64,000 nucleotides of DNA from Chiloscyllium plagiosum (Eukaryota): contig NC_057725.1 in NCBI RefSeq assembly GCF_004010195.1, positions 57,533,757-57,597,756 on the forward strand, in the 5' to 3' direction. Under the pieces are notes generated by a model. That model was not told the DNA's origin. It saw nothing but the letters and a program-made list of their open reading frames with translations, and did not search any database. Below are positions 1 through 45,635 of this stretch, piece after piece. Every line of letters starts with the position of its first letter. Within the stretch, counting starts at the first letter, position 1. The position numbers were made by a program, and so were the translations under genes.

Positions 1-310
1 AATCCATCAAATTCAGCACCGCCTTCCTAACCTGAGATCTTCTTCCCGACCTCTCCGCCCCCACCCCAGTCTGACCTATCACCCTCACCTTGACCTCTTT
101 CCACCTATCACATTTCTGACGCCCCTCCCCCAAGTCCCTCCTCCCTACCTTTTATCTTAGCCTGCTGGACACACTTTCCTCATTCCTGAAGAAGGGCATA
201 TGCCCGAAACGTCGATTCTCCTGTTCTCTGGATGCTGCCTGACCTGCTGCGCTTTTCCAGCAACACATTTTCAGCTCTGATCTCCAGCATCTGCAGTCCT
301 CACTTTCTCC
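1..310 (+). mobile_element. Penelope-like element 3' tail (family A), cut by the window edge
   Basis: Nearly identical to 2330-2647. Ends ...gcagtcctcactttctcc. Hammerhead-like core at 186-213. Confidence 0.8.
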
Positions 311-883
311 CTTATGTTTACAACAGCAGACAATGGTTTCTGGGGTTATCTTTGGACTGGCTTATTTATATCTTTAGGGTTTTTAAATTTGTTTTTTGAT
401 CTTTTGATTTTCTGTAAGTGAGCAATTCACCTCATGGCAGTTTACCATTCATTCTGCCTATTAAAACTGGATGTGTCTGGTTTGAGGATCTTTAGGTGCA
501 AGTTTTAAAGATTTTAAAAATGATTATAAAAATTTTAAACATGTATGATTATGCAATTACTACTTATTTAAATTGTTTCAGACTGACTTGTTTTGGGGGG
601 TTTAAACTTCCCTGTTCATCAGCCAGCTATTCCATGAAATTGCAGCAAGTTCTACTGTATGGTCTGGGTCTCTCCCTCGCTTCCACATCGTAATGAGCCT
701 CCAACATGAGTCATGCAAGTGCCTGTACTTAAAACTGCAACTTTTCCAGGCACTTACCCCAAACCATGCAACGCAAGAAAATGCCACCTTCCTGCTATTT
801 TCCAATTCACCAGCAGTGGGCGCAGTGTCCCCAGTTATCTTAAAAAATACAACTGGAGAGGAAAACCTACCATATTCAATTCA

Positions 884-979
884 TGATTTGGACCACCTGA
901 TGAAGGGGCAGTGCTGCGAAAGCTAGTGCTCCCAAATTAACCTGTTGGATTATAACCTGGTGTTGTGTGATTTTTAACT
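884..979 (+). mobile_element. ~96-bp Penelope-type mini-element (family B) with a 12-bp TSD
   Basis: atattcaattca is repeated at 872-883 and 980-991. Interior: cacCTGATGAaggggcagtgctgcGAAAGCTAgtg. Confidence 0.7.
894..928 (+). ncRNA. Minimal type I hammerhead-ribozyme-like motif (family B)
   Basis: Stem I CAC/GUG, core CUGAUGA, extra A, stem II GGGGC/GCUGC (one mismatch), GAAA, palindromic AGCU helix III, CUA cleavage triplet. Confidence 0.55.
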
Positions 980-1905
980 ATATTCAATTCAACATTCACT
1001 GAAAAGGGAGTTGCATTATGAATATTGTATTAATTTTTAAATAAGCGATTAATTAATTTCATAAGGTGTAAAAGTAAAGCAGTATCATTACACTGGCTTC
1101 ATCTCATGAGCTGAAGATGATCACTATAACTGCCCAAACTATCCAACCCCAGCCCCACCATTGAGCCCATTATATAATTAAGAAGCTACATATTCCCCAG
1201 AGACTTCACTGTAATTCTTGATTATCCAGCTTATTATTTAAACATTCTGTGATAAACATACTGGTGTACAGCTGTCAAATGATGGTATGGTATTAAAATG
1301 GACATCAGAACTGGAAATCCAAACCTAGTGAATAGCTTGGGTAGACTGATGAAAACCTACCCAAGTTACACTGGCAGTGCAGACGTGTCTTCAGCAAGAG
1401 AGCGGGCAGTGCAGAGGGAATACAGAGTCTGGCTTTGGGATGGCTGTGAGCACGTGAGGTAACATATTGCAGGCAAAAGTGAGAGTTGATGAGCATGAGC
1501 TTTGGTGGGAGGTGGGGACAGGAGCAGAGATAGAGGGAGAGTGAGCAATCGGGGGCAAGAAGTTGGCGCTTACATTGGAGGTCTGGAGAAGGACATTACA
1601 TTTGCCGGGCATTCCTCCAGCTGGCTGGGACTCATTGACCCCAGGTGGCAACCTCGGAGAAGGCTGGCACGGCCCCCACTGCTGGGGGAGGAGGAAGTCC
1701 ACATTAGCACCACCCCATCCAGCAGGACCTCCTGCCCACACAACAGGGCACTGATGGAATGAGCTGCCAGAGGAAATGGTGGATGCTGGTACGGTTACAA
1801 CATTTAACAAGCACCTGGATGGGTACTTGAATAAGAAGGGTTTAGAGGGATATAGGCCAAATGCTGACAAATGGGACTAGATTTATTTAGGATATCTGGT
1901 TGGCA

Positions 1906-3410
1906 TGAATTGAATTGAATTGAATTGAATTGAATTGAATTGAATTTATTGTCACGTGTGCCGAGGCACAGTAAAAAGCTTTGTCTTGCGAGCAATACAG
2001 GCAGATCACAGTAGCGTAGATAAGTAAATAATAGGTAAACAGCGGCAAAAACAAAAACACAGGTACAGGCGAATGCTAAGGGTTTGTGAGTCCATTCAGT
2101 ATTCTAACAACAGTAGGGTAGAAACTGTTTTGAAACTGGCTGGTGCATGTGTTCAGGCTTCTGTACCTTCTCCCTGATGGTAGAGGTTGTAGAAAAACAT
2201 AGCAACAGACCATAGCAACACGACAGTTGGAGGAAGAGCGCCTCATCTTCCGCCTAGGAATCCTCCAACCACAAGGGATGAACTCAGATTTCTCCAGTTT
2301 CCTCATTTCCCTCCCTCCACCTTGTCTCAGTCAAATCCCTCGAACTCAGCACCGCCTTCCTAACCTGCAATCTTCTTCCTGACCTCTCCACCCCCACCCC
2401 CACTCCGGCCTATCACCCTCACCTTGACCTCCTTCCACCTATCGCATTTCCAACGCCCCTCCCCCAAGTCCCTCCTCCCTACCTTTTATCTTAGCCTGCT
2501 GGACACACTTTCCTCATTCCTGAAGAAGGGCTCATGCCCGAAACGTCGATTCTCCTGCTTCTTGGATGCTGCCTGACTTGCTGTGCTTTTCCAGCAACAC
2601 ATTTTCAGCTCTGATCTCCAGCATCTGCAGTCCTCACTTTCTCCTCCTTGTAGAAAAACATTGCCAGGGTGGGATGGATCTTTGAGAATGCTGATGGCCT
2701 TTCCTCGACAGCGGGCCTGGTAGATGGATTCTATAGATGGGAGGTTGGCCTTTCTGATTGTCCGGGCAGAGTTCACCACTCTCTGTAACCGTCTCCGATC
2801 TTGACTGGTACAGTTGCCATACCAGGTAGTGATACATCCAGACAGAATGCTCTCGATGGCACACCTATTAAAGTTGGCAAGGGTATTCGCCGTCATGCCA
2901 AATTTCCTCAGCTGCCTGAGACAGAAGAGACGTTGTTAGGCCTTTGTAACCAGTGCATCTACATGAAGAGTTCAAGAAAGCTTGTTGTGGATGACCACTC
3001 CCAGGAGCTTGACACTCTCCACTCATTCCACCTCTGTGCTGTTGATGTGTAGGGGTTCATGAGTAACATCCCACCAAAAGTCAATAATGAGTTCCTTGGT
3101 TTTGCCGGCATTGAGAGCTAAGTTGTTCTCAGTGCACCATTTTTTCCAGGTCTTCCACCTCCCGTCTGTAGTCTGTTTTGTTGCCACCTGAGATTCGAAC
3201 GACTATGGTGATGTCGTCAGCAAACTTGTAAATGGAATTAGTCTGGTATTTGGCGACACAGTCATGGGTATACAGTGAGTACATTAGGGGGCTGAGTAAG
3301 CACCCTTGGGAGTTCAAATTATGAGTGTTAGGGAGGATGAAATATTGTCCCCAATCTTCACTGATTGTGGCCTGTGGGTCAGGAAACTGAAGATCCAGCT
3401 ACAGAGAGTG
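1906..3410 (-). mobile_element. Rex1/Babar-type LINE, 5'-truncated, RT C-terminus, with (TTCAA)n tail
   Basis: Minus-strand ORFs: SPLMYSLYTHDC...KFADD (RT motif), IESILSGCITTWYGNC...LQRVVNSA, LPSGRRYRS...SFYP. (TGAAT)8 at 1906-1945. Confidence 0.85.
2201..2647 (+). mobile_element. Penelope-like element 3' fragment (GIY-YIG C-terminal end plus tail) with a 14-bp TSD
   Basis: Encodes ATRQLEEERLIFRLGILQPQGMN, typical of the end of a PLE ORF. TSD ttgtagaaaaacat at 2187-2200 and 2648-2661. Hammerhead-like core at 2520-2547. Confidence 0.85.
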
Positions 3411-23267: not shown

Positions 23268-23463
23268 ATGAACATGACGCAAGAGAGTTATTTCCTCAAG
23301 TCGGCCTTGCCCACGGACGCCCCGATGTCCACCTTGGCCATGCCCTCGGATACCCAGCTCGACCACAGGGACGGCTCCCAGCAGAAGAGCATGAGGGTCC
23401 AGGAGCAGGTCCGCACTATGCTCAAGAGTAGCAGCAGTAGCCGGGCCGGCTCAGTCTGTGGAG
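23268..23463 (+). CDS. PKP3: PKP3 coding exon 1 (MNMTQESYFLKSALPTDAPMSTLAMPSDTQLD...RVQEQVRTMLK...VCG)
   Basis: ATG at 23268 in context aagATGa (a second in-frame ATG is at 23274). Plakophilin HR2-like motif. Donor G|gtaaac, phase 1. Confidence 0.92.
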
Positions 23464-25355: not shown

Positions 25356-25515
25356 ACAAATATTCGTGAAATGGTTCAGTTACTTGTCCAATTTATTAAC
25401 TGCAATCTGGAGCATGGCTGGAAAAAGTGTCTTACTTACTTGCTGCCTACTCTATCCATCAAATTAAATTTAGTGCCCCCATTGCGCAAATTCCCAGTAC
25501 TAAACTGTGAGCTCT
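25356..25515. repeat. Inverted repeat, left arm (~160 bp)
   Basis: Reverse complement of 26751-26911, with 12 substitutions and 1 indel by manual alignment. Confidence 0.9.
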
Positions 25516-26750: not shown

Positions 26751-26911
26751 AGAGCTCATAGTTTAGCACTGGGAATTTGCGCAATGGTGGCACTAAATTT
26801 AATTTGATGGATAGAGTAGGCAGCAAATAAGCAAGACACTTTTTCTAGCCATGCTTCAGATCTCAGTTTAATAAATTGGACAGGTGACTGAACCATTTCA
26901 TGAATATTTGT
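26751..26911. repeat. Inverted repeat, right arm (~160 bp)
   Basis: Reverse complement of 25356-25515. Confidence 0.9.
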
Positions 26912-27050
26912 TTAATCATCTTTTTAAAAAAAAATCTACAATGATGTTTGAGTTTGCATGGGATGCCACAACAGAGTGTACTTTTAAAATTTAGTAATGT
27001 TAAGCTCAGTTGGTTGGAGTTTAGTTCAAACTGTAGTAAGTCTCATTGGT

Positions 27051-27255
27051 GGAGAAAGTGAGGACTGCAGATGCTGGAGATCAGAGCTGAAAATGTGTTG
27101 CTGGAAAAGCGCAGCAGGTCAGGCAGTATCCAAGGAACAGGAGAATCGACGTTTCGGGCATAAGCCTGAAGACGGGCTTATGCCCGAAACGTCGCTTCTC
27201 CTGTTCCTTGGATGCTGCCTGACCTGCTGCGCTTTTCCAGCAACACATTTTCAGC
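27051..27255. mobile_element. Palindromic Penelope-tail insertion (family A) with a ~15-bp TSD
   Basis: The left half is the reverse complement of the right half. taagtctcattggtg is repeated at 27037-27051 and 27256-27270. Confidence 0.88.
27162..27197 (+). ncRNA. Minimal type I hammerhead-ribozyme-like motif (family A)
   Basis: AAGC-CUGAAGA-C-GGGC(UUAU)GCCC-GAAA-CGUC-GCUU: 4-bp stem I, 4-bp stem II, palindromic ACGU helix III, GUC triplet. Confidence 0.55.
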
Positions 27256-29286: not shown

Positions 29287-29372
29287 ATTCTTTTGGAGTG
29301 AGATATCCAGTGGCAACTATGCCAAGCTTCGCCTCCAAGTCTCAAGCCTTTGTAACTGAGAGAAAGTACTCT
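29287..29372 (+). CDS. PKP3: PKP3 coding exon 2 (DSFGVRYPVATMPSFASKSQAFVTERKYS); not in ORF track
   Basis: Pyrimidine tract and ccacag acceptor, donor TCT|gtgagt. The 86 nt convert phase 1 to phase 0, as needed to join exons 1 and 3. FASKSQ resembles mammalian FSSRSQ. Confidence 0.85.
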
Positions 29373-29679
29373 GTGAGTATACGGCCCCCAGTGTTGTAGT
29401 TTATCTCTGCTGTTATAGTTTCACGAACAGCTCAAACATGACTAGGATCGCAACTGAGCCATTATGTGGGTGTAATGATCCTTCGCGGGGGTTGTGGGGG
29501 GAGGTAGCAGTCATGTTTCTGCTTCCTCATTTGGGTAGGGTTTTATTTCCTGCAGCAAAAAATATCCATGGCAATAAAAGCAAGGATCTTGGAATACATA
29601 ATTCCAAACATTGCCCTTCAATCATTTGGAGACCAGACACTGCAGTCCCTTCAGGAATTGTAGCATTTTTGTATAATGC

Positions 29680-30155
29680 AAATTTACAAGGATGTTGCCA
29701 GGGTTTGAAGGTTTGAGCTGTAGGGAGAGGCTGAATAGGCTGGGTTATTTTCTGTGGAGTGTTGGAGGCTGAGGGCTGACCTTTATAGAGGTTTATATAA
29801 TAAATGAGGGGTGTTGTTAGAGTGAATAGTTAAGGTCCTTTTCCCAGGGTGTGGGAGTCCGAAACTAGAGGGCATAAGTTTAAGGTGAGAAGGGAAACTT
29901 TAAAAGGGACTTAAGAGGCAACTTTTTCATGCGGACGATGCTGTGTGGCTGGAATGAGCTGCCGGAGGAAGTGGTGGAGGCTGGTACAATTACAACATTT
30001 AAAAGGTACCTGGATGGGTATATATGAATAGGAAGGGTTTAGAGGGATATGGGCCAAATGTTGGTAAATGGGACTAGATTTATTTAGGAAATCTGGTTGG
30101 CATGGATGAGTTGGACGAAAGGGTCTGTTTCCATGCTGTTCTACTCCGACTCTAT
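29680..30155 (+). mobile_element. CR1/HER1-type LINE 3' fragment
   Basis: Collinear with 19335-19795. Confidence 0.88.
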
Positions 30156-31356
30156 TTGCATTCAACACGTTTACATAATAGGAAATACTTTGTGCTCCAA
30201 AATATGTTTGAAGTTTAATTTGTATTTTCAGATTTGAGCTTAATAAAGAGTAGAGTTAGTGTTTGTTGCAGAACATTACAGTATTCTAATATGCTATAGA
30301 TTCCAAAATGTCAGAACAATTATGGATGTAGGAGATTTCTGCACCTATTTTCAGAAGTTGAAAATGAATTTGAAATGTATTGAAATGAAGTGAAGATCAA
30401 CCATGATCTAGTTGAATGATTTCAAGGAACTTTGTCCTGTTCCTATGTTCGTTAATTAGTCACTTGCAGCAAGGAACAATGCTCAGAGTGCACTGATTTG
30501 GAAATCAAAAGCTGGAGTAACTAATGTTTTCATATATGGCTTGACAATGAGAAGTCTTTCTGGAAATATTGCTCCTTGACTGAAGGTGCAGTTTGGTGAT
30601 CGGCACTAAAGCTTGTGATTTCTGCACACTAAATATGGGAAGAATATAAACTCAAATCCATTGAGCTTTTGCCAGGGATTAAAGTTGACAGTTCTGAAGA
30701 CAATCTGAAAAGTAACTACTTTTTTTTTCCCCCAGAGGCTGGGAAAGATAAACAATAAACTAGTTGTCATTGTAAAGACCCATGATAGATTGATCTTACT
30801 GGTTGGTGGCAAATTTATGACAAATAATCTCAAAATTAGACAGGAGATTTGAAAAGTTTCTTTACAATTCGAACCATCCTCCATGTACATCCTCTGCCTC
30901 AAACTATTGTGTTTTTTAGAAAAAAGGGAGTTAAGTTGCTTATTGGAAAAGGGAAATAGTGAATGAGTGAGATTATTTTATAGAGAACTACTTGGTGTAA
31001 ATGTGAACCAAAGAGCATGTTTTTGTGCTTAACAAATGAGATACAATTGCTAGTCAGTGGTCCTGATATTGTGCAGGTGGACCACTGGCAGAGAATAGGG
31101 CAGGGCAGTACTGTGATGCATACTGCAGTCAAGTAGCTGCCAACATTCACTGGCTGAAAAATTGCTTCCAACTTCATAGATTTGCCAACAACTGTAAAAC
31201 CAAAGCCCTACGTGATTCAGTACTTATGTTGAGCAGTTGAAGTCAGTGGAGTTGAGGAACATATTAAACATCTGGACTTCATAATTGAACTGTTTCGAGT
31301 TTGCTTTTGTGGTGCTGTGCTTAATAGGTTTCAGAGTTATTGGTTTTCTCCCCCAG

Positions 31357-32156
31357 ACTGCCAAGCCATCGATGTACAAACAGGGGACGAGTCGAAACTG
31401 GTCGTCTCGTTCAGCCGTGGGGGATTACTCCTTCAAAGGGGCAACCACAGGAGATCAATATGTCAGGCAAAGGGAGGAGATGATCTCTCATTACAGACCC
31501 ATTTCAATTCATCAGACGTCTTCAAGACCACAGTCCTTCCATCAGTCCACAACGTACAGATATGTCAACCAAGGACTAATGGATCAGCAGGACATTGACA
31601 ACTTGTCACTACACTCAATGCAGCTGCCTGGTAAACATGCTGAGATCATGAGGAAGAAGCCTTGGTCTGGAGCACAAATGAATGGACAGGCCGTTTACCA
31701 AAGAGTAGACGATGGAGAGACCAGCATGATGTCAGATCAGGTTGATAATGGCTATTCATCCTCACGTGGCCGCAATAGCTATAGCACCAACACCTACAAT
31801 ATGAGCCACGTGACCAGTAAATCTCCAGTCAAGCAAATGGGTAATTTGAGCCTGCCTAGATCCTTAAGTGGATCAGTGGGTATGGCTGGTTACGCAGTGG
31901 AAGGGATGGAGGAGATGTCTGACCGTCGACAAATCAGACCCCCAGCTCAGCGCACCTTGCAGAGAGTCCAGCAAAGCAGCAAAGTAGCTCGAGGAAGAAC
32001 AGCTTCAGGTTCCTACTCAACAGTGCAAATGGCACATGCTCCATCGCTTCGCAGTTTGGGCAGATTGGAGGGCAGTATGCGGGAATTGGGAGACCTCCAA
32101 GCGCAGGAGTTAGAAGCGACGAGGCTTGATGGATTTCAAATGGCCCAGCTGACGCA
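31357..32156 (+). CDS. PKP3: PKP3 coding exon 3, large head-domain exon (TAKPSMY...WSSRSAV...RPPAQRTLQR...APSLRSL...QLT)
   Basis: Lies within ORF 31285-32160. Acceptor ttttctcccccag, donor CA|gtaagt (phase 2). WSSRSAV and PA.RTLQR are PKP3 head motifs. Confidence 0.92.
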
Positions 32157-33411
32157 GTAAGTCTGCAATTGACCTTGTAAGCGAAGCAGTATTAGCAAGG
32201 TTTTCAATTCACTTTGTACGCGAGTGGGGCATTTTTAATCTTTGTTGTTGACTCGCAAGAAACTCAGAAAAACTCTGGATAGAATCTCTAGAGAGAGGGA
32301 GAGAAAGACTCGATTTTAGAGATTGATATTGTTTCATCAGAACAAATTTCTAGTTGGCTCATTAGTTGTAAATTGGGAGGGGAATCTATTATTTAGAATT
32401 TCCCAGATTCTATAAATAGACCTTTTAAAACTTTTAGGTTGCTTGCATGGCATTTTGGGGATTTTAGTTCTTCTAAGTGGCCCTATCAAAGCTTTTTTAT
32501 TTGATTGATTTCACAGTCCAATCAATGTCACTGTCTGTTACCTTTATCACTGAATATTTCAATTCTTCTTAATACAGTCAGAGTATTCCCTCATTTTAAC
32601 AAGCCGAGATGCTAATCCTCAGTAAAAATATTTTTTTAAAAATGAAGCACAATAAATAATTTCTTAGAACAAAGACCTTTGTGATTTTTTGGGGGGAAAA
32701 AAACGGGGAAAAAAAGCCTTGAAGGAACAAAAGAATCTGGAAATCTTGGACAAGAAGTTGGACAAGAAACATGAACAAATTACATAGTTCTGTACTAATA
32801 ATGTATCTACTGTGAAACCAATAAGAGGAACAGGGTGTAAGAATTAGGATGCGAGAGAACGCATTCAGATTGTCCAGAATTTTCAAGAGTGTTATTCACC
32901 GAGAAGAAAGGGATTGTGTTTAATTTCATGTGTTTCCAAATCCAAACGTATTGTGATGCCACCCACCTCGTAAAGCCATTTTTGAGTTAGTGATGCCATT
33001 ACAGCACACCCACAAATAAAGTCACAACACAGAGAGGCCATTTGGCTCTCTAAAACTGGTCATTAATAAAACAACTTATTTAACTGCTCAGTTACATAGC
33101 AAGCTGGTCAGTCCTGGATTTAATTGAGCTGTGCTGAGTAAATATTTTTTTGGAGACCTGCAATTAGCCACGTCACCTATAGCCTATCAAAAGGCCATGA
33201 TTGGTAGACATTCTCTGGGAGAAAGCACTCTTGTGTGAATGCTCCATGTGGAGAGAATCTAGCTTTGCTATGATCCTCTCCACGAAAAATAGCTTTGTAA
33301 CCTGCATCGTTTGGACTTGCACCGGGAGGCCCCGCAGGAGGCGCAGGTTCAAATCCCAGCGAATGCATGGCAGATTTCACTTTCCATTCTTGCCACACAC
33401 TGTATTTGTTC

Positions 33412-33522
33412 TTGTAGCGCAGAGGTAGAGTCCAGGCCTCTGGGACAGGAGACTTGGGTTCAATTCCCACCTACTCCAGAGGTGTCCAAATAACATCGCT
33501 GAACAGGTTGGTTAGGAAAATA
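33412..33522 (+). mobile_element. Short tRNA-headed SINE
   Basis: A box tagcgcagaggtag and B box ggttcaattcc. No acceptor stem closes. Confidence 0.5.
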
Positions 33523-33911
33523 CCCAGTGATAGGGGTGCACAAACCATCTGTCCCAGGCCGGGACTAGCCTTTGTACGTTCTACAGTAAGTGATGCTCCT
33601 TTCCAGTCCGGCTTCCTCAGTTATTATAGGTAGTTTTGTAAGTTATGGAATGTTTGAACTTTGCACTCTTGCTCCTGGGTCTACTTGCCTTGCGCCCCAG
33701 CTTGGAAATGTAGACAATCCACCTCACGGAATTTTCCCATCCGCTTATTATTTTAATGAGTTGAAAGTTTTCTACAACCATTGACGCCCAGTATCCCATT
33801 CCGCACAGCTCAAGAGCAACCTTTCAAAATCTAGCCCGTAACTCCTTGTTTGCCGCTAATATGTTTCGGCAGATGTGTTTAGAAACCTGAACTCGATATC
33901 GTTCTCTCTAG

Positions 33912-34035
33912 TTCTGATGGTTTGGACCTGCCGACTGCTGTCAACCTTCTGAGCTCTCCTGACGTTAAGAATCAAGTGATTGGAGCTGGATATATCCAAC
34001 ATGAATGCTACCATGATGCGGGTGCTAAAGAGCAA
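33912..34035 (+). CDS. PKP3: PKP3 coding exon 4 (SDGLDLPTAVNLL...GAGYIQHECYHDAGAKEQ), start of the armadillo domain
   Basis: Acceptor ttctctctag, donor CAA|gtaaga, 124 nt, phase 2 to 0. Confidence 0.95.
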
Positions 34036-34224
34036 GTAAGAATTGGTGACTATGGCGAATCAGTGAAATGCTTTGAGTATTTTCCTTTAAGTTCCTGTCG
34101 CTTATCACTCTTTATTCTGAAATTCTTTTAAATTGAAGTATTGCTGTAGACATTCTGTTACATGTAGCAATATGTCACTTGTGTTATCTGTGTGAGTGCT
34201 ATTCTAGCCTCTTGCAGATCCTTG

Positions 34225-34475
34225 ATTTTTAATTACTCCACCATAAGTCATCAGCTGCCAAGGCCCTAAGCTCTGGGATTTGTCCCTGAACTCCTGCAAT
34301 TCACCTTGCTTCTTAAAGATATTCCTTTTAAATCTACCTCTCTGATCAAGCTTTTAACTATCTTCCCAAATATCTCCAGTGAGGCTCAGTATCAGGATAT
34401 ATTTGATAACGCTTCTGTGAAAACCCTTGTGATATGTTGCTTTATTAGAGACAGTATATGGGAATGAATTGTTGG
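34225..34475 (+). mobile_element. L2-type LINE 3' end remnant
   Basis: ggccctaagctctgg...aatctacctctctgatcaagctttt...ctgtgaaaacccttg resembles the L2 C-terminal (P.LWN..P; KT.LF..AF) and tail sequence. Confidence 0.5.
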
Positions 34476-35139
34476 GTGTAACATTCACATATCCCCTTGT
34501 TATTTGAACAGGCTATTTGCAAACATATACCCCACCAATCCTCCAAAGGTGTGTTGAGAAAATACCTGGCAAGACATGTCCAGATATAAGTTGGTATAAG
34601 TTTCGTAACAAATGAACTTGCAGAACAACATTATTATTATAGTATAGAAACATAATGTAAAATAATGAAAACGTCACACCTCTATGCTAATAAGTCATGC
34701 TTTATGAAACAAAATAATCTTTATCTCCTTCAGCATCTCCTAAATTTCTGAGTCTGGCCAGAGTTCTTAGCTAAACCTTTTCTGTCAAAGGAAGCCCAAC
34801 TTTATGTTGTGATTTTTGCTGATCCTGACTGACTGCCTTTGGTCTTAATCATCTGATATTCAGAGCCAGGCTAGAAGACCTCAGTGCCCAGAAAAATTAG
34901 CAGACAGATTAGAACATTGCTTATTGTTATAGATCTATGGCAGAATGTTACCAAAGCTTAAATACAAATGAGAGAAACTCAGCAGCTCTGACAGCATCTT
35001 CAGGGAGAGAAACAGACTTAACATTTTGAGTCCAATAAGACTTTTCTCGAGTCCTTTAGTTGGTAAAGACGAGTTAGAGGGTTGTAATGACCAAGCCCGG
35101 TATTACAAGTGCTAACATTGGATAGTTTTCCCTTATTAG

Positions 35140-35344
35140 GCTTATAATTTGAAGGCCATCTCGAAGCTTGCGAACCTCTTCAATCACGATGCGTTGGAAG
35201 TGCAACAGAGTGCGACAGCAGCAATGCGCAACCTGATCTATAACAACACCATGAACAAACAGGAGCTGGTCAAGCAGAATGGAATCCCCAAGATGATGCA
35301 GGCAATCAAAAGCATTGATGAAGAACTGAAGGCCAACATCACCG
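35140..35344 (+). CDS. PKP3: PKP3 coding exon 5 (AYNLKAISKLANLFNH...ATAAMRNLIY...ELKANIT)
   Basis: Acceptor ttttcccttattag, donor ACC G|gtaagt, 205 nt, armadillo repeat. Confidence 0.95.
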
Positions 35345-36204
35345 GTAAGTTTAATTCCACCCTTTTATAAGTTAGTTCGGTCCTTGAGCCTGTGAGTGAT
35401 GGTATGGTAACTTGTTGAGTATACTGCAACAAAGACCAAAGTACAAATTTGTATTTCCATCTAAACCCATCACGGGTCTGAACGAACCTACTTGGAAGGA
35501 CATTAAATTTATTTGGGTATTTACTCTTTACCCATCTTCAGATGTCATTAGATAGCAATGGTGAACCAATCCAAGGATTGAAAATAGCTTTATTAAAAAA
35601 AACCCTCATATTTCATGTGTTTTTTTTTCTGGCTGTGAGCTAGAGCCATTAATCAAAATTGCATTCACATTAATTAAGTAGTAATTAAATTTGCATGTTA
35701 CCTCATGGTCCTGCTGTGCCAATTTGCAAACCTGTAAGCCAGCCTAATTTATTGCGGTTTATGGTGTAATGTACCTTTTTTTTGACTTCAGGAATATAAA
35801 CTGGGAATGCTGAAAATGACAAGATAACCTCTTCTGAGTGCTTTCCTTTTAAACCTTGTATTTTATATGGATAAATTGTGCGCTTTATTTCGTTTACAGT
35901 TCTGCGTGTCAGAACCCGTCATCCCCTAGTCTGTAATGTGTAACCACACCATAATAAGCACTTCTCCCCCACCGCTCCCCACCAACTCCCAGCACCGCCA
36001 TCATCTCCAATCTGTTGCTGTCCCTGCTGACATTCACTGTAAGTTCATCTTCAACAACTACTTCTGAAGAAGATTCATATGCAGACTTGAAATATTAATT
36101 TTCTTTCTCCACTGATGCTGCCAGACCTGCTGAGTTTCTCCAGCATCCTCTGTTTGTTTCAGACTTCCAGCACCTGCAGTTCTTTGTTTTTATTCAACAA
36201 TTGT

Positions 36205-36480
36205 GGGTGGCACGGTGGCACAGTGGTTCAATTCCCGCCTCAGGCGACTGACTGTGTGGAGTTTGCACGTTCTCCCCGTGTCTGCGTGGGTTTCCTCCGG
36301 GTGCTCCGGTTTCCTCCCACAGTCCAAAGATGTGCAGGTCAGATGAATTGGCCATGCTAAATTGTCCGTAGTGTTAGGTAAGGGGTAAATGTAGGGGTAT
36401 GGGTGGGTTGCGCTTCGGCGGGGCGGTGTGGACTTGTTGGGCCGAAGGGCCTGTTTCCACACTGTAAGTAATCTAAACTA
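36205..36480 (+). mobile_element. HE1-type V-SINE with a deletion between the A and B boxes
   Basis: ggcacagtggtt|caattcccgcc junction, then V-domain and tail. Confidence 0.85.
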
Positions 36481-36676
36481 CATTCCAGACTATAACAGTA
36501 CTGCATCAGTGTTCCTTACTTAACATGTAAATACACTTTTCCACCTTCCAATCTCTTCCCTAATCACTAACTATAGCCCCACAAGTCTGTAACTCAACCC
36601 CCCCTTGTTTGTGTCTATAACTCCACCCCCACCAAACGCCTCTTAGCCAGTAAGTACTTACCATCAATCCCTCTAC

Positions 36677-36858
36677 TCTCCCACAGTCCAAAAATATGCA
36701 GGTTAGGTGAATTGGCCATGCTAAATTGCCTGTAGTGTTAGGTGAAGGGGTAAATATAGGGCAATGGGTCTGGGTGTGTTGCGCTTCGGAGGGTTGGTGT
36801 GGACTTGTTGGGCCGTAGGGCCTGTTTCCACACTGTAAATAATCTAATCTAATCTAAT
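36677..36858 (+). mobile_element. 5'-truncated HE1-type SINE
   Basis: 3' half only, ending in (AATCT)n. Confidence 0.8.
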
Positions 36859-37109
36859 TGTAACTGCAATTGCCCATCTACTCCAGCCTTTTACCCAAAC
36901 CACAATTAGTGACCTCGAGTCTAACTATACCTCTGCCAAATACTCATCTCTCTAGTTTGTATTCTTACAGTCTCCCCTTCTTTACAGCTAGTTAAATCTC
37001 TACTTACTTCTGTGATGTGTAACTTTCCTTTCGTTATTTCCCCTTCTAACCTTCATCATTCTGTGATTTTCCTTTTTCTCTCGTCTTCCTTCTTTCTTTT
37101 ATCTTTTTT

Positions 37110-37110
<1 letters not shown>

Positions 37111-37153
<43 letters not shown>
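37111..37153. repeat. (CT)n microsatellite
   Basis: About 19 CT units. Confidence 0.95.
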
Positions 37154-37156
<3 letters not shown>

Positions 37157-39336
37157 GTAATGTGACCGTAACCACCTTAATTGTTAATTGTGGTGATAGT
37201 AACAGCAGTGTTCAGTATCATACTGTTAGAAGTGTACCTTTTGCCAACAATGGATTAAATTTCTTCAAAGCTAAAACAACACTGCTCTGTGTGCATGACA
37301 AATATCCTGAGTTCAGCAATTATGCCTTGGGCTGGAGTTGTACTGGATAAGCTCTGAACTTTCACTGGCATTGCTTCTTGAAGCAGTGCCCTGATGCCTG
37401 ACTGCTTCATTGAGGGTTCTTGTAGTCTGGTGAGGGGTACTGCTGCTTCTGCTCGAAGGCGTGTTAGCACAAAAGTGGCAGCCTCCCCCTGTCCATTTGT
37501 TCTGTGGGTGATCTTTTGGACTGGCTGAGAAGGCAGGTTCAAAGAAAACAGATGGACACAGCTAAGATTCCTGCTACAAAGTGCTGCAGTCACAACACGG
37601 CAATGCTTTCTGAAGGTCATGTGGAGTGTTAGCAAGATAACCGACCAAACGCTGGATGGATTTGGCTTCAGACCAGTTAATGCAGTCATACCTTGGAGTT
37701 TTCTGGTGTGTAAAATACCAGAGAGAATGTATTGCTGGGGGTTGGAGCGAATGAAAAGAATCCAGGATTGCTTAACGTTCAAGAGGAATGTTAAAAGAAC
37801 CAAATATGTAATTTGAGGAAGCTTCTGTCTGAGTGATGATGTCAAGCGAAAGAACAGTCCAAAAAATAACCTCCTTATTGATACCAGAGTTTGCAGACTT
37901 ACCAAGCTGACGGAATGTGAGCATCCTCACCATGCTCTAATTTCAAACATCACTCTCTGTCAGAGCCGCTACTAAACGGACAACTTGAGTCTGGTCGGAG
38001 CTGGTTTCAGCTGGGCCTGAATTTAGTGTGTTACACTTGACCACTGCATTTCACATGAGATGTGAGAACCTTTGAGGAGATCATAGCAGCAATGGAGAAA
38101 CCTGGGTGCAGAGCTTGCCAAACTCTGCTCAGCGTGTCGCTAATCCTGAGCCGTCAGAGACCTCCACAAAGGTGGTCAATCTGGAATGGCAACAGAAGGA
38201 GAATAAGGTTCTGCCCTTACTTGCAGAGGTGATGTGTGCCTTTTGAAAAGAGAGAGAGAGCAAGATATTGGAGACTTCCATATCAAACATGAGAAGCCTC
38301 AGGCCTATACTCTGATGCTCAGTTCCTATGGAAAGAGTGAGTCACCACAGACCAGACAGAAAACAGAGGCCACGTTTGCCTTGATCCACCCTGCGCAGGG
38401 TAGAGACGACCCTCCCTGTGGCTGTTCAGTGGCTCACTGAAATGCTGTCCAGCTTCTCGCTGGCATGGGATTGTCGGTGAGGCCTTGAGAGGGAAGGTGG
38501 TGAAAGGGCATATGGAGTGGGCATGCTGCTAAAAGGCCCTCCCATCCTGCACTTCCAATCTTCTCAGGAGATCCCTATCCTCTGGAAACCTATGCTGTAT
38601 GGAGTGATGCGCGTCTCTGATCCTGAATCACACCTACAGTAACTTTGCACCAACGTGGATTCTGTTTTATTGTAGCTCTCCATGAGCAATGCGGCTTCTT
38701 ACAGGTGTCAAGAGCCATGTGCTTGGACAATAACCCTTGACTTTAAGAGACTGACTCTACTAGGAGTTGCAAAGACCCTTCCTGTGGTCACAATCCAACT
38801 GAAGATGGAAGGAGATTCTTTTGTCTTGACAAAGTCTGCTGGTTGATCAGAGGTCACTTGGATTATCATGTGTTCAATCTATGACTCTGAACGTGATGGG
38901 AATTCAACCATTCCAAGCCCTGTCTGCTCTGTCTGGCCTTGACATTAACAGTTACCTTAGAGAGATACTTGTGCAAAGCAGATTGAAATCTGACAGCTAG
39001 CAATCCCTTCAGATGAAAATCACGACTGTTGCGATCTTGGCAGCCAATGGCAAGATGTGTCCTCTGGGTGCAGTGGGATAGAGACCTAGTTCCAAAAGAA
39101 CCCAAATGTTGCCCATGATCTTCCCTGAAACACTCAGACATTGCTCGTCCATTATCTTGAGAAAGCTGATTCCTATCCACCCCTCCCCCACCCACCCCAA
39201 TATAAAAGCCGAATATGTTGATCCTGGCAATCTGAAATCAAATAGGAGATGCTGGAGAGCTCAGCGTTATGTAGAGAGAGATACTGAGTTAACATTTTTG
39301 AGTTCGATATGATCTCTTCAGAACCTGACTCTGTAT

Positions 39337-39915
39337 ATTGATTGGTTGATTGATTGATTAATTGTGACGTGTATCGAAGTACAGTGAAAAACCTTGTTTA
39401 CAAGCAGTACAGGCAGACCATAGTAAGCAAGGATTTGCAAACCAAAAAATCTTAAACTGAGGCATACAGGTGTGCACTCAACGTGATCCACATTAGCAAG
39501 GTCAGCATTATTTGAGGCTAGAGAATCCATTCATCAGTCTAATAATGGCTGGAAGAGTATGTGTGTGCGTGTGTGTGTGTGTGTGTTCGTTCGTTCGTTC
39601 AGGCTTCATTATCTTCCACCTGATGGAAGAGGTTATAGGAGAGCATTACTGGGGAGCAATGGGTCTTTGATGATGATGGCAGCCTTTCTGCGGTAGTGAG
39701 TCATGTAAGTGGACTGCATGGACATTGGCTTCCATGATGGTCTGGGCTGTGCACACCACCTTCTGTAGTTTCTTTCAGTCCTAGGCAGAGCAGTTTCCAT
39801 ACCAGGCCAGGATGCACCCAGGCAGTGTGTTTTCTATGGTGCACCTGAAGAAGTTGGTGAGGGTCCTTATGGACATACCAATCTTCCTCAGCTTCCTGAG
39901 GAGGAAGACGCTGTT
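39337..39915 (-). mobile_element. Rex1/Babar-type LINE 3' fragment with (TCAA)n tail
   Basis: Collinear with 1945-2930. It sits between older Penelope-tail remnants at 39225-39325 and 39917-39970. Confidence 0.75.
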
Positions 39916-40217
39916 CCTATCTCTGCTGCCTAACTTGCTGAGCTTCTCCAACAATTTTGCTTTGTGACCTCCAGTTCAGGGTCTCCCTCCCCTTGAGTTG
40001 GAGTTGTTTCCAGCCTTTTTGCAGTGCGGAGTAGTATGTTTCTGAATCTCTTGCTCTGCATCGGAGCTTCAATGGAGTGCTACATAGTTCCCGTGATGAA
40101 ATGAAGACCGATAATTGGAACGTACATGTCAGTCTTAGTGACATCCAATGTAACAATCATAACGTCCAAAGTATTGAAAGCTCTAAACATGTTCTCTGAG
40201 TAACAGCCTGTCAAATA

Positions 40218-40545
40218 GGTAGCGGTGGCTCAGTGGTTAACACTGCTACCTCACAGTGCCAAGGACTCAGGTTCAATTCCAGCCTCGGACAGGTGTCTGT
40301 GTGGAGTTTGCACATTTTTTCCTGTGTCTGCGTGGGATTGCTCCGGTTTCCTCCCACAGTCCAAAGATGTGCAGGTTAGGTGAATTGGCCATGCTAAATT
40401 GCCCATAGTGCCCATGGATGTGTTGGTTAGGTTCATTAGTCAGGGGAAATGTAGGGGAATGGGTCTGGGTAGATTACTCTTCAGAGGGTCAGTGTGGACT
40501 TGTTGGGTTGAAGGGCCTGTTTCCACACAGTAAGGATTCTAGATA
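40218..40545 (+). mobile_element. HE1-type V-SINE
   Basis: tRNA head, V-domain and tail. Confidence 0.85.
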
Positions 40546-41047
40546 CAAGGAACATTGCAGAATTGGTCTTTAACCTCCTTCCAGCCTGACTTTGGTAGAG
40601 CAATGTCTTCCCACTCTGCTCTCATGGTCCACCCCCCACAAATCCTGGCATGTTTCGCACAGTTTGTGAAACCCATAAGCTGTGTTTAAAGTCTGAATTG
40701 ACTGCATCTTAGAATAATTGAATTAGAGATCTTGCAGATTCACTAGGGCTTCCTGTGCATTTCTGAACATGCCCAACCAAGGCCAGAAGTCAGCAGGACT
40801 AAGTCAGACTTTTGACACGTTGGCCCTCCTTTTTGACAGATAAAACTCTGCCTGTTTTTGTATCCCAAATCCTGACTCAAATATACCTGAGTGACCTATC
40901 GTATAGTTGTTATTAATATAGATCTGATAAAATGTCTAGACTGGAATTGAACCATGCCCAGAGCAGACAGGAACCATCTATACCGGTGAGGTTCAGAAAT
41001 ACTGAATGTGGTCAGGAATTTGTTTATTGTAATTTAAGATTGACCTC

Positions 41048-41118
41048 ATGCGGGCCTGACAGGAACAACCAAAGGGCTGGATATGGCCCGCGGGCCGTAA
41101 AATGCCCAGGTCTGCTCT
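41048..41118. mobile_element. Possible hAT-Charlie-like non-autonomous DNA transposon end
   Basis: gcgggcc...ggcccgcgggccgtaaaatgcccaggtctg-ctcta resembles Charlie subterminal and terminal motifs. The other end was not identified. Confidence 0.4.
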
Positions 41119-41445
41119 AAACCTTTCCTATTCATGTACCCATCCAGATGCCTTTTAAATGTTGTAATTGTACCAGCCTCCTCCACTTCCTCTGGCAGCT
41201 CATTCCATACATGTTTATGTGTGAAAAAGTTGCCCCTTAGGTCACTTTTAAATCTTCCCCCTCTCACCCTAAACCTATGCCCTTTAGTTCTGCACTCCCC
41301 CACCCCAGGGAAATGACCTTGTTTATTTATCCTATCCATGCCCCTCGTAATTTTGTAAACCTCTATAAGGTCACCCCTCAGCCTTCGACGCTCCAGGGAA
41401 AACAGCCCCAGCCTATTCAGCCTTTCCCTATAGCTCAAATCCTTC
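41115..41445 (-). mobile_element. CR1/HER1-type LINE fragment
   Basis: ORF 41046-41438(-): SYRERLNRLGLFSLERRRLRGDLIEVYKI...WNELPEEV. Confidence 0.9.
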
Positions 41446-42129
41446 CGTAAAATTGCTCATTGAGGATATATTAGTAGACTTTGAACACAACACTGAAACT
41501 ACATTCATCTCCTTCGTCCCTGGGTGGGGTGTCACAAAGAAAGGCGAATTTGATTTTAATCTCCTCGTCGGTTTAATGCCAGGTGAGTCACCAATAATCT
41601 TAGGCTGCATCTGAAAGAGAGAAATGCTTGATTGTGTGGATGGTTCGTGCCTCATTGTGAGACATAATTTATAAGACTTTGAAACTGGAAGGGAGAAACC
41701 AGGTTGAGCAGAAAAATGAGTCAGCGTTGAGGTTTGGAGATTAAGAGCTCCATCTAAGTTTAAGAGTGATTTTTTTTTTTAGAAAATCTGCTGTAGTTTC
41801 CCTTTTCTGGTTTATGTAACTGAATTTACATTACTGCTTTGTCATCACAATTCTGCATAAACGCATCCTTCTCAGGTTGTCTCTGGTTAACAGTTATATC
41901 AGCTCTTCTTTTTATTCTCCCACCATATGTTATCTCGAGCTTTCAAGTAGCACCTCTGCTGCTGAGCAGCTAATTCTACAGATCAGAGATCCAAGTTTAA
42001 CACTTTCAATCTATTGGATTTGGTGCCACCCTGCAAGCCTCTTGCCTACTGAGACATCATAGTAACCTGTGGACCTTGCTGTAATTGTATGAATGGTATT
42101 AGGGGTTTGCATTATCAATCCAATATAAT

Positions 42130-42440
42130 GGGGGAGGTGACAGCTTAGTGGTATTATCACTGGACTGTTAATCCAGAGACTCCGGTAATGTTCTGGGAAG
42201 CTGAGTTCAAATCCCACTACGGCAGATGGTGGAATTTGAATTCTATGAATATCTGCAATTAGGAGTCTAGTGATGACCATGAATCAATTGTCAGGAAAAG
42301 CCCATTTGATTCACTAATATCCTTTAGGGAAGGAAACTGCCATTTATCTGGTCTGGCCTATATGTGACTCCAAATCCACAGCAATTAACAATTAGGGATG
42401 AGCAGGAAATGCTGCCCTAATTCCCACAAATTAATAAAAA
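42130..42440 (+). mobile_element. Family-B SINE
   Basis: tRNA-like head (agttcaaatccc), the family core and the tail. Confidence 0.7.
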
Positions 42441-42551
42441 TGCTACCAAAATGGCATAGCATTGGATTTACGTTAGGGAGTGTTCATACTCCATTTTTCC
42501 TCTCCCCCAACCTTCATTTATTAATCTGTTGTCAGTTGGCCACTAAGAACT

Positions 42552-43731
42552 AGAGCTGGAAATGTGTTGCTGGAAAAGCGCAGCAGGTCAGGCAGCATCC
42601 AGGAAACAGGAGAATCGACATTTCGGGCATAAGCCCTTCTTCAGGAATGAGGAAAGTGTGTCCAGCAGGCTAAGATAAAAGGTAGGGAGGAGGGACTTGG
42701 GGGAGGGGCGTTGGAAATGCGATAGGTGGAGGGAGGTCAAGGTGAGGGTGATAGGCCGGAGTGGGGTGGGGGCGGAGAGGTCAGGAAGANNNNNNNNNNN
42801 NNNNNNNNNNNNNNNNNNNNNNNNNNNNNNNNNNNNNNNNNNNNNNNNNNNNNNNNNNNNNNNNNNNNNNNNNNNNNNNNNNNNNNNNNNNNNNNNNNNN
42901 NNNNNNNNNNNNNNNNNNNNNNNNNNNNNNNNNNNNNNNNNNNNNNNNNNNNNNNNNNNNNNNNNNNNNNNNNNNNNNNNNNNNNNNNNNNNNNNNNNNN
43001 NNNNNNNNNNNNNNNNNNNNNNNNNNNNNNNNNNNNNNNNNNNNNNNNNNNNNNNNNNNNNNNNNNNNNNNNNNNNNNNNNNNNNNNNNNNNNNNNNNNN
43101 NNNNNNNNNNNNNNNNNNNNNNNNNNNNNNNNNNNNNNNNNNNNNNNNNNNNNNNNNNNNNNNNNNNNNNNNNNNNNNNNNNNNNNNNNNNNNNNNNNNN
43201 NNNNNNNNNNNNNNNNNNNNNNNNNNNNNNNNNNNNNNNNNNNNNNNNNNNNNNNNNNNNNNNNNNNNNNNNNNNNNNNNNNNNNNNNNNNNNNNNNNNN
43301 NNNNNNNNNNNNNNNNNNNNNNNNNNNNNNNNNNNNNNNNNNNNNNNNNNNNNNNNNNNNNNNNNNNNNNNNNNNNNNNNNNNNNNNNNNNNNNNNNNNN
43401 NNNNNNNNNNNNNNNNNNNNNNNNNNNNNNNNNNNNNNNNNNNNNNNNNNNNNNNNNNNNNNNNNNNNNNNNNNNNNNNNNNNNNNNNNNNNNNNNNNNN
43501 NNNNNNNNNNNNNNNNNNNNNNNNNNNNNNNNNNNNNNNNNNNNNNNNNNNNNNNNNNNNNNNNNNNNNNNNNNNNNNNNNNNNNNNNNNNNNNNNNNNN
43601 NNNNNNCTGAAGAAGGGCTTATGCCCGAAATGTCGATTCTCCTGTTCCCTGGATGCTGCCTGACCTGCTGTGCTTTTCCAGCAACACATTTCCAGCTCTG
43701 ATCTCCAGCATCTGCAGACCTCACTTTCTCC
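42552..43731. mobile_element. Penelope-like insertion with inverted ends and a TSD, spanning the assembly gap
   Basis: cactaagaactaga at 42541-42554 and 43731-43744. The left arm is a minus-strand tail and the right arm a plus-strand tail. Confidence 0.85.
42790..43606. other. Assembly gap (817 N)
   Basis: Run of n. Confidence 1.
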
Positions 43732-44109
43732 ACTAAGAACTAGATTTTCATGTCAGAGGTAGGGATTAAAGCATTGTAGGCTCGTCCAGTCTTCAGGAGC
43801 CCATCACAAGGTTGTTGGGAAGTGGGATCTCCTTAGGAGAAGAAACCACTTTTGCCAGGGGCAGGTCTGTTGTCTCGGATGGTAGACTTGAGGTGGGACG
43901 ATCCTGCTAAAGAGCCAAGCTCAGCTGCCATTCTCCTTTGGTTCTCTGAAGGGATTGTGAAAATTCGATCACAATAGATACCCACCCAAAATTTGACCCT
44001 TTGCTGGAGTTGCCTCCATACCTCTAATCCCTCCTATTCTGACTCCCCTTGATCTTAACCTCCCTCCAAATGGCACAATAAAGTTCTGAAAATCCTCTGC
44101 TTTATTTCG

Positions 44110-44708
44110 TAGAAATCATAGAATCCAAACAATGTGGAATCAGGCCATTTGGCCCAACTGGCCCACACCGACCCTCTGAAGAGCATTTCACTCTGACCCC
44201 ATCTTTGCCCTGTATTTCCCATGGCTAACCCACCTAGCCTGTACATCCCTCAAACACTACGGGCAATTTAGCACGGCCAATTCACCTAACCTGCACATAT
44301 TTGGACCGGGTCAAAGAGCTGGAAAAGCACAGCCAGTCAGACAGCATCTGAAGAGCAGGAGAGTCAACGTTAGCTTCTCCTGGTCTCTGGACCCACCCAG
44401 ACACCACCAGCCATGTGGCTGCTCCAGCAGTCCGCTGTGTCTGGGCAGTTCCAGAGGCTGGGAGAAGCTAACATCAACTCTCCTGCTGCTCAGATGCTGC
44501 CTGACCTGCTGTGCTTTTCCAGCACCACACTCTTCGACTTTGATCTCCAGCATCTGCAGTCCTCGCTTTCTCCATCTTTGGACTGTGAGAGGAAACCAGA
44601 GCACCCGGAGGAAACCTCTACAAACACACACAGACATTTGCCCGAGGCCGGAATTGAATCCGTGTCCCTGCTGCTGTGAGGCAGTAGTGTGAGCCACTGA
44701 GCTGCCCT
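44110..44708 (-). mobile_element. HE1-type SINE with a nested palindromic Penelope insertion (44307-44572)
   Basis: The SINE halves rejoin at cat(a/c)tttggac, duplicated at 44296-44306 and 44573-44583. Confidence 0.82.
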
Positions 44709-45041
44709 TTGTCTGGCAGTATCCTGGCCTTCTCACCATATATTAGTCTGTTCCCTACCGCTTCACAATCATAGTGGTTCCTGACGCCTGGCTGCCCTTG
44801 TGAAAATCCTAAAGGTCTGAGGCTTCGCCTTTTAATAGGGGCACGTGGACCTTCTGCACCCTCATATTTCCTGCACCCTCCCAAAATGGCCACTGGCGAT
44901 AACTGAGGCAAGGAATTTGTCCACACCAGTTGACAATCAGTTTTTGGGCACTGCCACCTCTATTTGATTCATTTCAGGATTCATGTATTCTTAGGAATGG
45001 ATACATGTGCAATTTTATTATACAATTTGACATCTTAGTAC

Positions 45042-45635
45042 TTAGAATCCCTACAGTGTGGAAACAGGCTCTTCAGCCCCACAAGTCCTCACTGTCCCTC
45101 TGAAGAATAACCCACCCAGACCCTTTGCCCTCCCTATAATTCTGTATTTACCCCTGACTAATACATCTCACCTTCACATCCCTATGGGCAATTTGGCATA
45201 GCCAATCTACAGTCAACTGCACATCCCTAGACACTATAGTCAATCTGGAGGAGAAAGTGAGGATTGCAGATGCTGGAGATCAGAGTCGAAGAGTGTGGTG
45301 CTGGAAAAGCACAGCTGGTCAGGCAGCATCCGAGCAGCAGGAGAGTCAACCCCATCAGGAATGAACTCATTCCTGATGAAGAGCCCATGCTTGAAACATC
45401 GACCCTCCTGCCCCCCCCACCCCGGAAGCTGGCCAACCGGCTGCGCCCCTCCAGCACTACACTCCTTGACTACAGCCAATCCACGCTGTCCTGCACATCT
45501 TTGGACTGTGGGAGGAAACCGGAGCACAGGGACGAAACCCACGCAGACACTGGGAGAATCTACAAACTTCACACAGTCAGTCGCCCGAGGGTGGAATCAA
45601 ACCCAGGTCCCTGGTGCTGTGAGACAGCAGTGCTT
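45042..45635 (-). mobile_element. HE1-type SINE with a nested palindromic Penelope insertion (~45247-45468)
   Basis: Imperfect duplication actatagtcaatc 45233-45245 / actacagccaatc 45469-45481. CTGATGA core at 45373. Confidence 0.78.

What the first reader, a model, noticed from the sequence alone, without database searches (positions are those of the whole stretch)
186..45400. Dispersed minimal hammerhead-ribozyme cores in two Penelope-type families, with covariation
Seen: the pattern CUGA(A/U)GA-N-[stem II]-GAAA-NN-UH occurs at 186-213, 897-925, 2520-2547, 27166-27193, 42617-42644(-), 43607-43634 and 45373-45400. Stem II loops vary (AUAU, UCAU, UUAU, CCAU, AGU) while the stem stays largely paired (GGGC/GCCC, GAGC/GCUU). 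Helix III is a loopless palindrome that differs between families (ACGU in A, AGCU in B). Every copy has an extra base between A9 and G10.1. Established: Penelope-like elements carry minimal type I hammerheads that are thought to cleave as dimers, and an extra A at that position occurs in the CChMVd hammerhead. Inference: this shark genome has at least two abundant ribozyme-bearing PLE or retrozyme-like families. Three sense copies lie inside PKP3 introns 1 and 5, so two cores in one pre-mRNA might dimerise in cis. Caveat: stem I is weak in most family-A copies, and helix III is mutated at 42617, 43607 and 45373.
Basis: partly seen in the sequence, partly recalled or inferred. Interest (0 to 1): 0.7.

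Follow-up and report, generated by a model that had tools for sequence, protein, structure and literature searches.

The report
Shark Penelope stubs starting at ribozyme
These motifs are real copies of the tiny self-cutting "hammerhead" RNA motif already known from Penelope-like jumping genes, and many short copies in this genome start a few bases before the motif with an extra G, which likely marks the capped front of the element's RNA and suggests that uncut RNA is what usually gets copied.

Summary
All seven cores are present, from six insertions. They are the minimal hammerheads of Penelope-like element (PLE) termini, published in 2014. Families A and B lie downstream of Neptune-type GIY-YIG frames. 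A 965-kb sample held 96 cores against 0-7 in shuffles, about 350,000 genome-wide. Window variation is mostly loop change and CpG decay; real covariation appears between subfamilies. Pairing in cis in the plakophilin pre-mRNA is unlikely: each sense core is damaged and is one arm of an inverted repeat. A G precedes the A at -4 in 3,897 of 6,477 non-templated copies (26% expected), about 30 bases after a conserved upstream box. Starts at the cleavage site are about 14-fold rarer. Best reading: the RNA begins, capped, at helix I; reverse transcription starts internally and runs off the cap of uncleaved RNA. Cleavage and the start site are untested. I did not find this in print (7 searches), but this scan noted it before on other DNA of this genome.

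The parts
1..310 (+). 3' end of a family-A (Neptune-type) PLE; its 5' part runs into an assembly gap just before the window
   Evidence: 93% to the 2201-2647 copy; gap in L211
152..157 (+). TTATCT box at -34 from C3, predicted promoter element
   Evidence: at -34 in 42 of 55 long copies, -30..-36 in 52 of 55
186..213 (+). minimal hammerhead core, intact; predicted cut after 213; predicted RNA start at A182
872..991 (+). family-B stub: 12-bp target duplication (872-883, 980-991), about 11 nt of an inverted tail end, start at A892 (-5) behind a G, core 897-925, short tail
2187..2661 (+). 5'-truncated family-A PLE with 14-bp target duplication (2187-2200, 2648-2661)
2206..2328 (+). C-terminal end of the PLE GIY-YIG frame
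   Evidence: 28 of 41 residues identical to the RT/GIY-YIG frame of L215
2486..2519 (+). TTATCT box (2486-2491) and initiator-like CCTCATTCC; predicted RNA start at A2516
   Evidence: reads of a related organism have loose ends at 2516 (143 reads)
2520..2547 (+). minimal hammerhead core, intact; tail continues to 2644 (+97)
27037..27270 (.). head-to-head inverted stub pair in intron 1 with 15-bp target duplication; + arm holds core 27166-27193 without the helix I 5' strand; - arm starts in stem II; tails end at +97 and +60
42540..43744 (.). one inverted insertion in intron 5 with 15-bp target duplication; cores 42617-42644(-) and 43607-43634(+), both with a helix III CpG change; middle is an 817-N gap
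45247..45411 (.). older inverted pair; + core 45373-45400 with C.A at 15.2-16.2; - arm has lost most of its core
36064..36183 (+). decayed core and tail of a more distant subfamily
23268..60300 (+). host plakophilin-type gene (exons 1-5 mapped by spliced contigs; later exons seen as ARM-like frames only)

Best explanation
The motifs are minimal type I hammerheads in the terminal repeats of Neptune-type Penelope-like retrotransposons, and many genomic copies are short stubs, likely dead, that were likely made when reverse transcription started inside the element's RNA and ran off its likely capped 5' end, 4-8 bases before the ribozyme core. Shown: linkage to GIY-YIG frames, target duplications, head-to-head inversions, two 3' ends near +60 and +97, a 5'-end peak at helix I, and an excess of G in front of that start. 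Inferred: a promoter about 30-40 bases upstream starts the RNA at a CA step (A-4 in family A; A-8 and A-6 in family B); the reverse transcriptase adds a C opposite the cap, which pairs with a G in the target or partner strand; run-off stubs lose the promoter. The ribozyme would be the first 32-37 bases of the RNA, with helix I only 3-4 bp because the RNA starts there. Cleavage would remove the cap and is predicted to need a second copy (palindromic helix III) or the element's protein. The cut RNA is seldom the template. The copies in the host introns are likely inert.
For: PLE identity: family-A loci extend into an unbroken frame with RVT_1 (E 6e-8) and GIY-YIG (E 4e-4, just under Pfam's cut-off) and a CX4CXXC linker; family B extends into a related frame. 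5' peak in tail-selected copies: family A 63 of 148 start at -9..+8 against 13 at -60..-10 (p 6e-25); family B 13 of 27 against 0. Whole-genome exact counts: G before A-4 3,897, A or T 2,580; G is 18 of the first 100 listed one base downstream and about 20 of 100 one base upstream (counted by eye). Control on all 112 such junctions in C1:1-46 Mb: 1 is a long copy with a point change; G in 24 of 50 copies without an inverted partner (p 7e-4), in 36 of 57 junctions explained by neither partner nor target duplication (p 4e-9), in 14 of 19 single extra bases (11 of 16 without three ambiguous ones). Family B: 12 G, 1 A, 0 T before A-8 and 7 G, 1 A, 1 T before A-6 among the first 100 of 2,906 listed (by eye). 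Upstream boxes at fixed distance: TTATCT -34 (42 of 55), TATAAA -36..-41 (10 of 10). Cleavage-site starts: 404 against about 5,600 at A-4, both purine-preceded. Covariation across 9 subfamilies grouped by stem II only: helix I pairs 1 and 2 paired in 9 of 9 with three pair types each; 15.2-16.2 is C-G in 6, G-C in 2, C.A in 1. Literature: internal initiation at two sites and uncleaved RNA as main substrate in vitro (PMC11167929); untemplated G as cap trace in L1 (PMC9341517).
Against: No RNA 5'-end data and no cleavage assay. No full-length element with a 5' terminal repeat joined to its frame was found among 40 RT-bearing stretches, so initiation in the 5' repeat is borrowed from the anole element. 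About half of the peak copies have an inverted partner (35 of 63), the partner strand is rich in GA (G before 16 of 29 non-C cases), and among inverted copies alone the G excess is weak (42 of 61, p 0.02). Junctions one base further downstream are as common (6,571) and show no G excess, so the start is not a single base. TTATCT is not a canonical TATA box. The Poseidon-like family C shows no such peak (1 of 29). The 9 subfamilies are related (four are family A) and were grouped by hand; 5 of 14 groups had fewer than 3 copies and were dropped. Within young copies the core (5 of 270) is not clearly better kept than flanks (77 of 1,998).
Confidence: 0.7

Rival explanations
1. The 5' peak is a fold-back or template-switch hot spot made by the near-palindrome TTCCTGAA around C3, and the G comes from the GA-rich partner strand; the RNA start is elsewhere.
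For: 35 of 63 peak copies have an inverted partner; 14 of 42 inverted G junctions are templated by the partner; C and T dominate at the -3 junction.
Against: Copies without a partner also peak there and have excess G (24 of 50); family B, with a different sequence, peaks at -8..-5 with G; upstream boxes sit about 30 bases before the starts.
Confidence: 0.15
2. The short units are non-autonomous SINE- or retrozyme-like families with their own master copies that begin with G, amplified by PLE enzymes.
For: Units are uniform, about 90-130 bp, and very numerous (43,645 exact cores); animal retrozymes are proposed to derive from PLE termini (10.64898/2026.07.22.740005).
Against: No shared sequence upstream of the G in 66 loci; the G occurs in several subfamilies and at different positions; stubs have the same two 3' ends as long copies; tandem arrays are rare (7 same-strand neighbours among 207 family-A copies, 0 among 46 family-B).
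Confidence: 0.1
3. The intronic cores pair in cis and cut the host plakophilin pre-mRNA.
For: Three sense cores do lie in introns 1 and 5; a palindromic helix III can pair between copies in a two-strand fold of 43607.
Against: All three are damaged and are arms of inverted repeats; normally spliced contigs span intron 1 in three runs of related organisms; published minimal hammerheads cut poorly even as dimers (PMC4209133).
Confidence: 0.03

Closest known systems
Minimal hammerheads in pLTRs of metazoan PLEs (Cervera and De la Pena 2014, PMC4209133; parts 1-2 of 4 read, one of the supplementary files searched)
   Same: Loopless palindromic helix III, extra base between 9 and 10.1, G10.1-C11.1, short helix I, many families, mostly single truncated copies, close pairs on opposite strands.
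   Different: Sharks are not mentioned in what I read; about 350,000 cores here against about 4,000 and 9,000 in coelacanth and Xenopus (different descriptors, not like for like); stem II is 4-5 bp in families A and B; that paper does not map 5' ends or an extra G.
Poseidon PAc of the green anole (Frangieh et al. 2024, PMC11167929; parts 1-2 of 4 and passages read, supplements not seen)
   Same: Two reverse-transcription start sites giving an optional tail (here 3' ends near +60 and +97); uncleaved RNA as main substrate; in family C the extra base makes an ATG at stem II, as in PAc.
   Different: Families A and B are Neptune-type; the genomic 5'-end peak at helix I and the G are not reported in the text I read.
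Penelope of Drosophila virilis and Adineta vaga (PMC8557442, PMC3846280; passages read)
   Same: Start site or TATA/initiator-like motifs in the pLTR, inverted pLTR next to the direct one, 30-40-bp tail, target duplications.
   Different: In D. virilis a 5'-UTR intron ends at helix I, so the RNA starts further upstream; here the inferred start is helix I itself.
Non-LTR retrozymes (10.64898/2026.07.22.740005; parts 1-3 of 5 read)
   Same: Type I hammerhead units related to PLE termini; reported in one cartilaginous fish.
   Different: Defined by tandem repeats; these copies are single or head-to-head.
Untemplated 5' G of full-length L1 insertions (PMC9341517; passages read)
   Same: Extra G before a pyrimidine-purine start, read as a copy of the cap.
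   Different: Different retroelement class; here the run-off products are about 100 bp because initiation is likely internal.

Membership tests
PLE minimal type I hammerhead | CUGANGA and GAAA boxes, UH cut site, G10.1-C11.1 | tested here: met
   (G-C in 9 of 9 subfamilies; one subfamily of 3 copies has a deviant core majority)
PLE minimal type I hammerhead | unpaired base between 9 and 10.1 | tested here: met
   94 of 96 strict cores
PLE minimal type I hammerhead | loopless palindromic helix III | tested here: met
   C-G 6, G-C 2, C.A 1 of 9 subfamilies
PLE minimal type I hammerhead | short helix I kept by covariation | tested here: met
   pairs 1-2 in 9 of 9, pair 3 in 6 of 9, pair 5 in 1 of 9
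PLE minimal type I hammerhead | self-cleavage as dimer or with protein | not testable with these tools
   genomic trace weak: 404 starts at the site against 163 and 298 at its neighbours
Endonuclease-positive PLE | RT followed by C-terminal GIY-YIG in one frame | tested here: met
   L215 frame, family A; family B only the C-terminal part, by similarity
Endonuclease-positive PLE | inverted pLTR, optional 30-40-bp tail, target duplication | tested here: met
Endonuclease-positive PLE | direct pLTRs on both sides of a full frame | tested here: inconclusive
   no full-length copy among 40 stretches, many with assembly gaps
Neptune clade | CX2-5CXXC linker between RT and GIY-YIG | tested here: met
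   CNRRRCNTC in P0001, matching cysteines in family B; motif per PMC8557442; shared with Nematis
Neptune clade | RT phylogeny with reference Neptune elements | not tested
   no reference sequences were on hand
Non-LTR retrozyme | tandem head-to-tail units each with a hammerhead | tested here: not met
   7 same-strand neighbours among 207 family-A copies, 0 among 46 family-B; none in the window
Non-LTR retrozyme | circular RNA | tested here: inconclusive
   4 reads join 2645 to 2521 in one run of a related organism; a genomic tandem would look the same

The most novel reading that the evidence does not exclude
In Neptune PLEs the hammerhead is the capped first 32-37 bases of the mRNA and works as a switch: the uncut capped RNA is the insertion template, while protein- or dimer-triggered cutting removes the cap and so ends, or changes the mode of, translation. 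The hundreds of thousands of stubs are the fossil record of cap run-off cDNA.
Probability: 0.35. Interest if true: 0.65.

Novelty: new member of a known kind. Interest (0 to 1): 0.42.

Why it matters
The role of PLE hammerheads is stated as unclear in PMC8557442 and PMC11167929. Placing the ribozyme at the capped start of the RNA, and showing from thousands of genomic junctions that insertions seldom begin at the cut, turns that question into specific tests: decapping, translation control, or no role. The motifs themselves are known, and the copies in this window are likely inert.

Tried and rejected
Rfam: no hammerhead match up to E 5. First 5'-end map was discarded because references with inverted partners gave false long alignments; redone with long non-inverted references. 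Of 209, 46 and 30 tail hits, 207, 46 and 29 were mapped; 204 and 41 passed the 3' filter; 148 and 27 at 88% identity or more were counted. Monomer folds show only stem II and z near 0 for three copies; two-strand folds did not give the hammerhead dimer as lowest energy; neither is evidence on catalysis. Cleavage trace: 404 / 163 / 298 at the site and its two neighbours, with about a quarter to a third of each being point changes (by eye) and the -1 pattern reduced by CpG decay: at most a small excess, left inconclusive. Sequencing runs: no RNA holder listed. Raw single-cell poly(A) reads of a related organism lie on both strands, 93% run on into unlike flanks, and show no start or end pile-ups; X21 laid no reads: they look like intronic copies and cannot show capped starts. 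No shared read-through beyond +97 among 171 tail ends. PDB: no match for the PLE frame. Pfam: 1 of 6 fragments hit; 0 of 3 plakophilin exon peptides hit. Literature: 7 searches found no paper on PLE 5'-junction G or on shark PLE hammerheads; Schostak 2008, Arkhipova 2006 and 2017 were not read, and unseen supplements (PMC11167929 Fig. S2, file 1 of PMC4209133, tables of the 2026 preprint) may bear on this.
Full report
Observation. The window has 6 strict cores against 0.08 expected; 100 stretches of 10 kb taken at fixed steps on contigs C1-C36 (965,093 called bases) hold 96 against 0-7 in shuffles, which scales to about 350,000 for the genome. One exact 25-letter family-A core alone occurs 43,645 times. 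Rfam has no model for it.

Anatomy in the window. The seven cores belong to six insertions. Four have clear target duplications of 12-15 bp. The 2520 copy begins in the last codons of a GIY-YIG frame. The 27166 copy is a head-to-head pair that folds into one long hairpin. 42617 and 43607 are the two arms of one insertion around a gap. The 897 copy is a family-B stub with about 11 bases of an inverted tail end. Helix III changes are CpG transitions.

What the elements are. Family-A loci extend upstream into frames with RT and GIY-YIG matches and a CX4CXXC linker; family B extends into a related frame. By the linker they are Neptune-type (PMC8557442, passages); no tree was built. A third family in the sample has a longer stem II, and its extra base is U, making an AUG as in the anole Poseidon element (PMC11167929). 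Inverted partners, tails ending near +60 or +97 after the cut site and target duplications match published PLE structure (PMC8557442, PMC3846280). Cervera and De la Pena (PMC4209133) described these minimal hammerheads, their extra base, palindromic helix III and opposite-strand pairs. The motif is therefore known.

Covariation. Inside the window it is thin. Across nine subfamilies grouped only by stem II (5 of 14 groups dropped for having under 3 copies), helix I pairs 1 and 2 are paired in 9 of 9 with three pair types each, pair 3 in 6 of 9, pair 4 in 5 of 9 and pair 5 in 1 of 9; 15.2-16.2 is C-G, G-C or, once, C.A. The subfamilies are related, so this is not an independent count. It points to selection on active source elements. 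Among 27 young copies the core (5 of 270 cells changed) is not clearly better kept than flanks (77 of 1,998), as expected for neutral copies.

Where copies begin. I found copies by their tail only and mapped their 5' ends against long non-inverted references. At 88% identity or more, 63 of 148 family-A copies start at -9..+8 of C3, against 13 in the 51 bases upstream and 15 in the next 18 bases; family B gives 13 of 27 against 0 and 3. Family C shows no peak. Whole-genome exact counts show G before the A at -4 in 3,897 copies and A or T in 2,580; the template has C there. One base either side, G is about a fifth of the first 100 listed (by eye). Because the inverted partner is GA-rich, I fetched all 112 such junctions in C1:1-46 Mb. 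One was a long copy with a point change. G stood in 24 of 50 copies without a partner, in 36 of 57 junctions explained by neither partner nor target duplication, in 14 of 19 single extra bases, and in 11 of 14 cases where the letter is part of the duplication; among inverted copies alone the excess over the partner's own composition is weak (42 of 61, p 0.02). Family B shows G before A-8 and A-6 (by eye). All these starts are CA steps about 30 bases after a fixed upstream box. Reads from a related organism have their loose ends at the same A. Starts at the cleavage site number 404, about 14-fold fewer than purine-preceded starts at A-4 (different patterns, so rough), and only 1.4-2.5 times their neighbours.

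Mechanism. An untemplated G before a pyrimidine-purine start is read in L1 as a copy of the cap (PMC9341517). The anole element starts reverse transcription at two internal sites and mainly uses uncleaved RNA (PMC11167929). Together these give the best reading (0.7): the RNA starts, capped, at helix I; reverse transcription from +60 or +97 runs to the cap; the added C pairs with a G in the target or partner; the product is a promoterless stub. Cleavage would free a 32-37-base capped piece. What that does is open; self-cleavage has been linked to cap-independent translation in viral leaders (PMC13725137, abstract and discussion read), which is only an analogy. The start site, the cap and cleavage are all untested here, and I found no full-length element in 40 stretches.

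Host gene. Spliced contigs from three runs place 27166 in intron 1 and, with the ARM frames, 43607 and 45373 in intron 5. Each of these sense cores is damaged and paired with an inverted arm, so cutting of the host pre-mRNA is unlikely.

Novelty. Known motif in a known element class, in a lineage not covered in the papers I read. The 5'-end and extra-G pattern was not found in 7 literature searches, but earlier unreviewed notes of this scan report the same on other DNA of this and other shark-type genomes; I had reached it before that look-up (note), and those notes are not independent support. No note lies near this window.

Noticed in passing
L215:6000-6560 (G000:C8, near 30.848 Mb): The 5' junction of a long family-A copy carries about four in-frame tandem repeats of about 132 bp of its own frame, giving an 893-codon open frame; looks like repeated template jumping.
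   Followed up: no
window 2645 to 2521: Four RNA reads of a related organism join the tail end to the core start with three letters between; a circle or a genomic tandem.
   Followed up: no
family C loci, e.g. L080, L090, L133: Poseidon-like family whose extra base is U and forms an AUG at stem II; TATAAA-like box near -53; no 5'-end peak at helix I.
   Followed up: partly
L105, L116 and one further copy (group E2): A small old subfamily with a deviant core majority (TTGACAA) but a fully re-paired 4-bp helix I.
   Followed up: no
window 14955-15275, 20212-20520, 36172-36860, 47566-47860 and others: Many copies of a tRNA-like SINE on both strands (recalled as HE1-like) and CR1-like LINE 3' ends; the older Penelope stubs at 44318 and 45247 sit inside such SINE copies.
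   Followed up: no
window 1325-1378: A hairpin with CTGATGAAAAC in its loop; partial core look-alike without hammerhead anatomy.
   Followed up: no
window 2001-2960: The 2520 insertion interrupts a different LINE-type fragment on the minus strand, next to a (TGAAT)n run at 1905-1945.
   Followed up: no
L188 and L189 (G000:C1:3.888 and 3.892 Mb): The same stub with the same flanks occurs twice 3.7 kb apart: a local duplication after insertion, counted twice in the 112 junctions.
   Followed up: no
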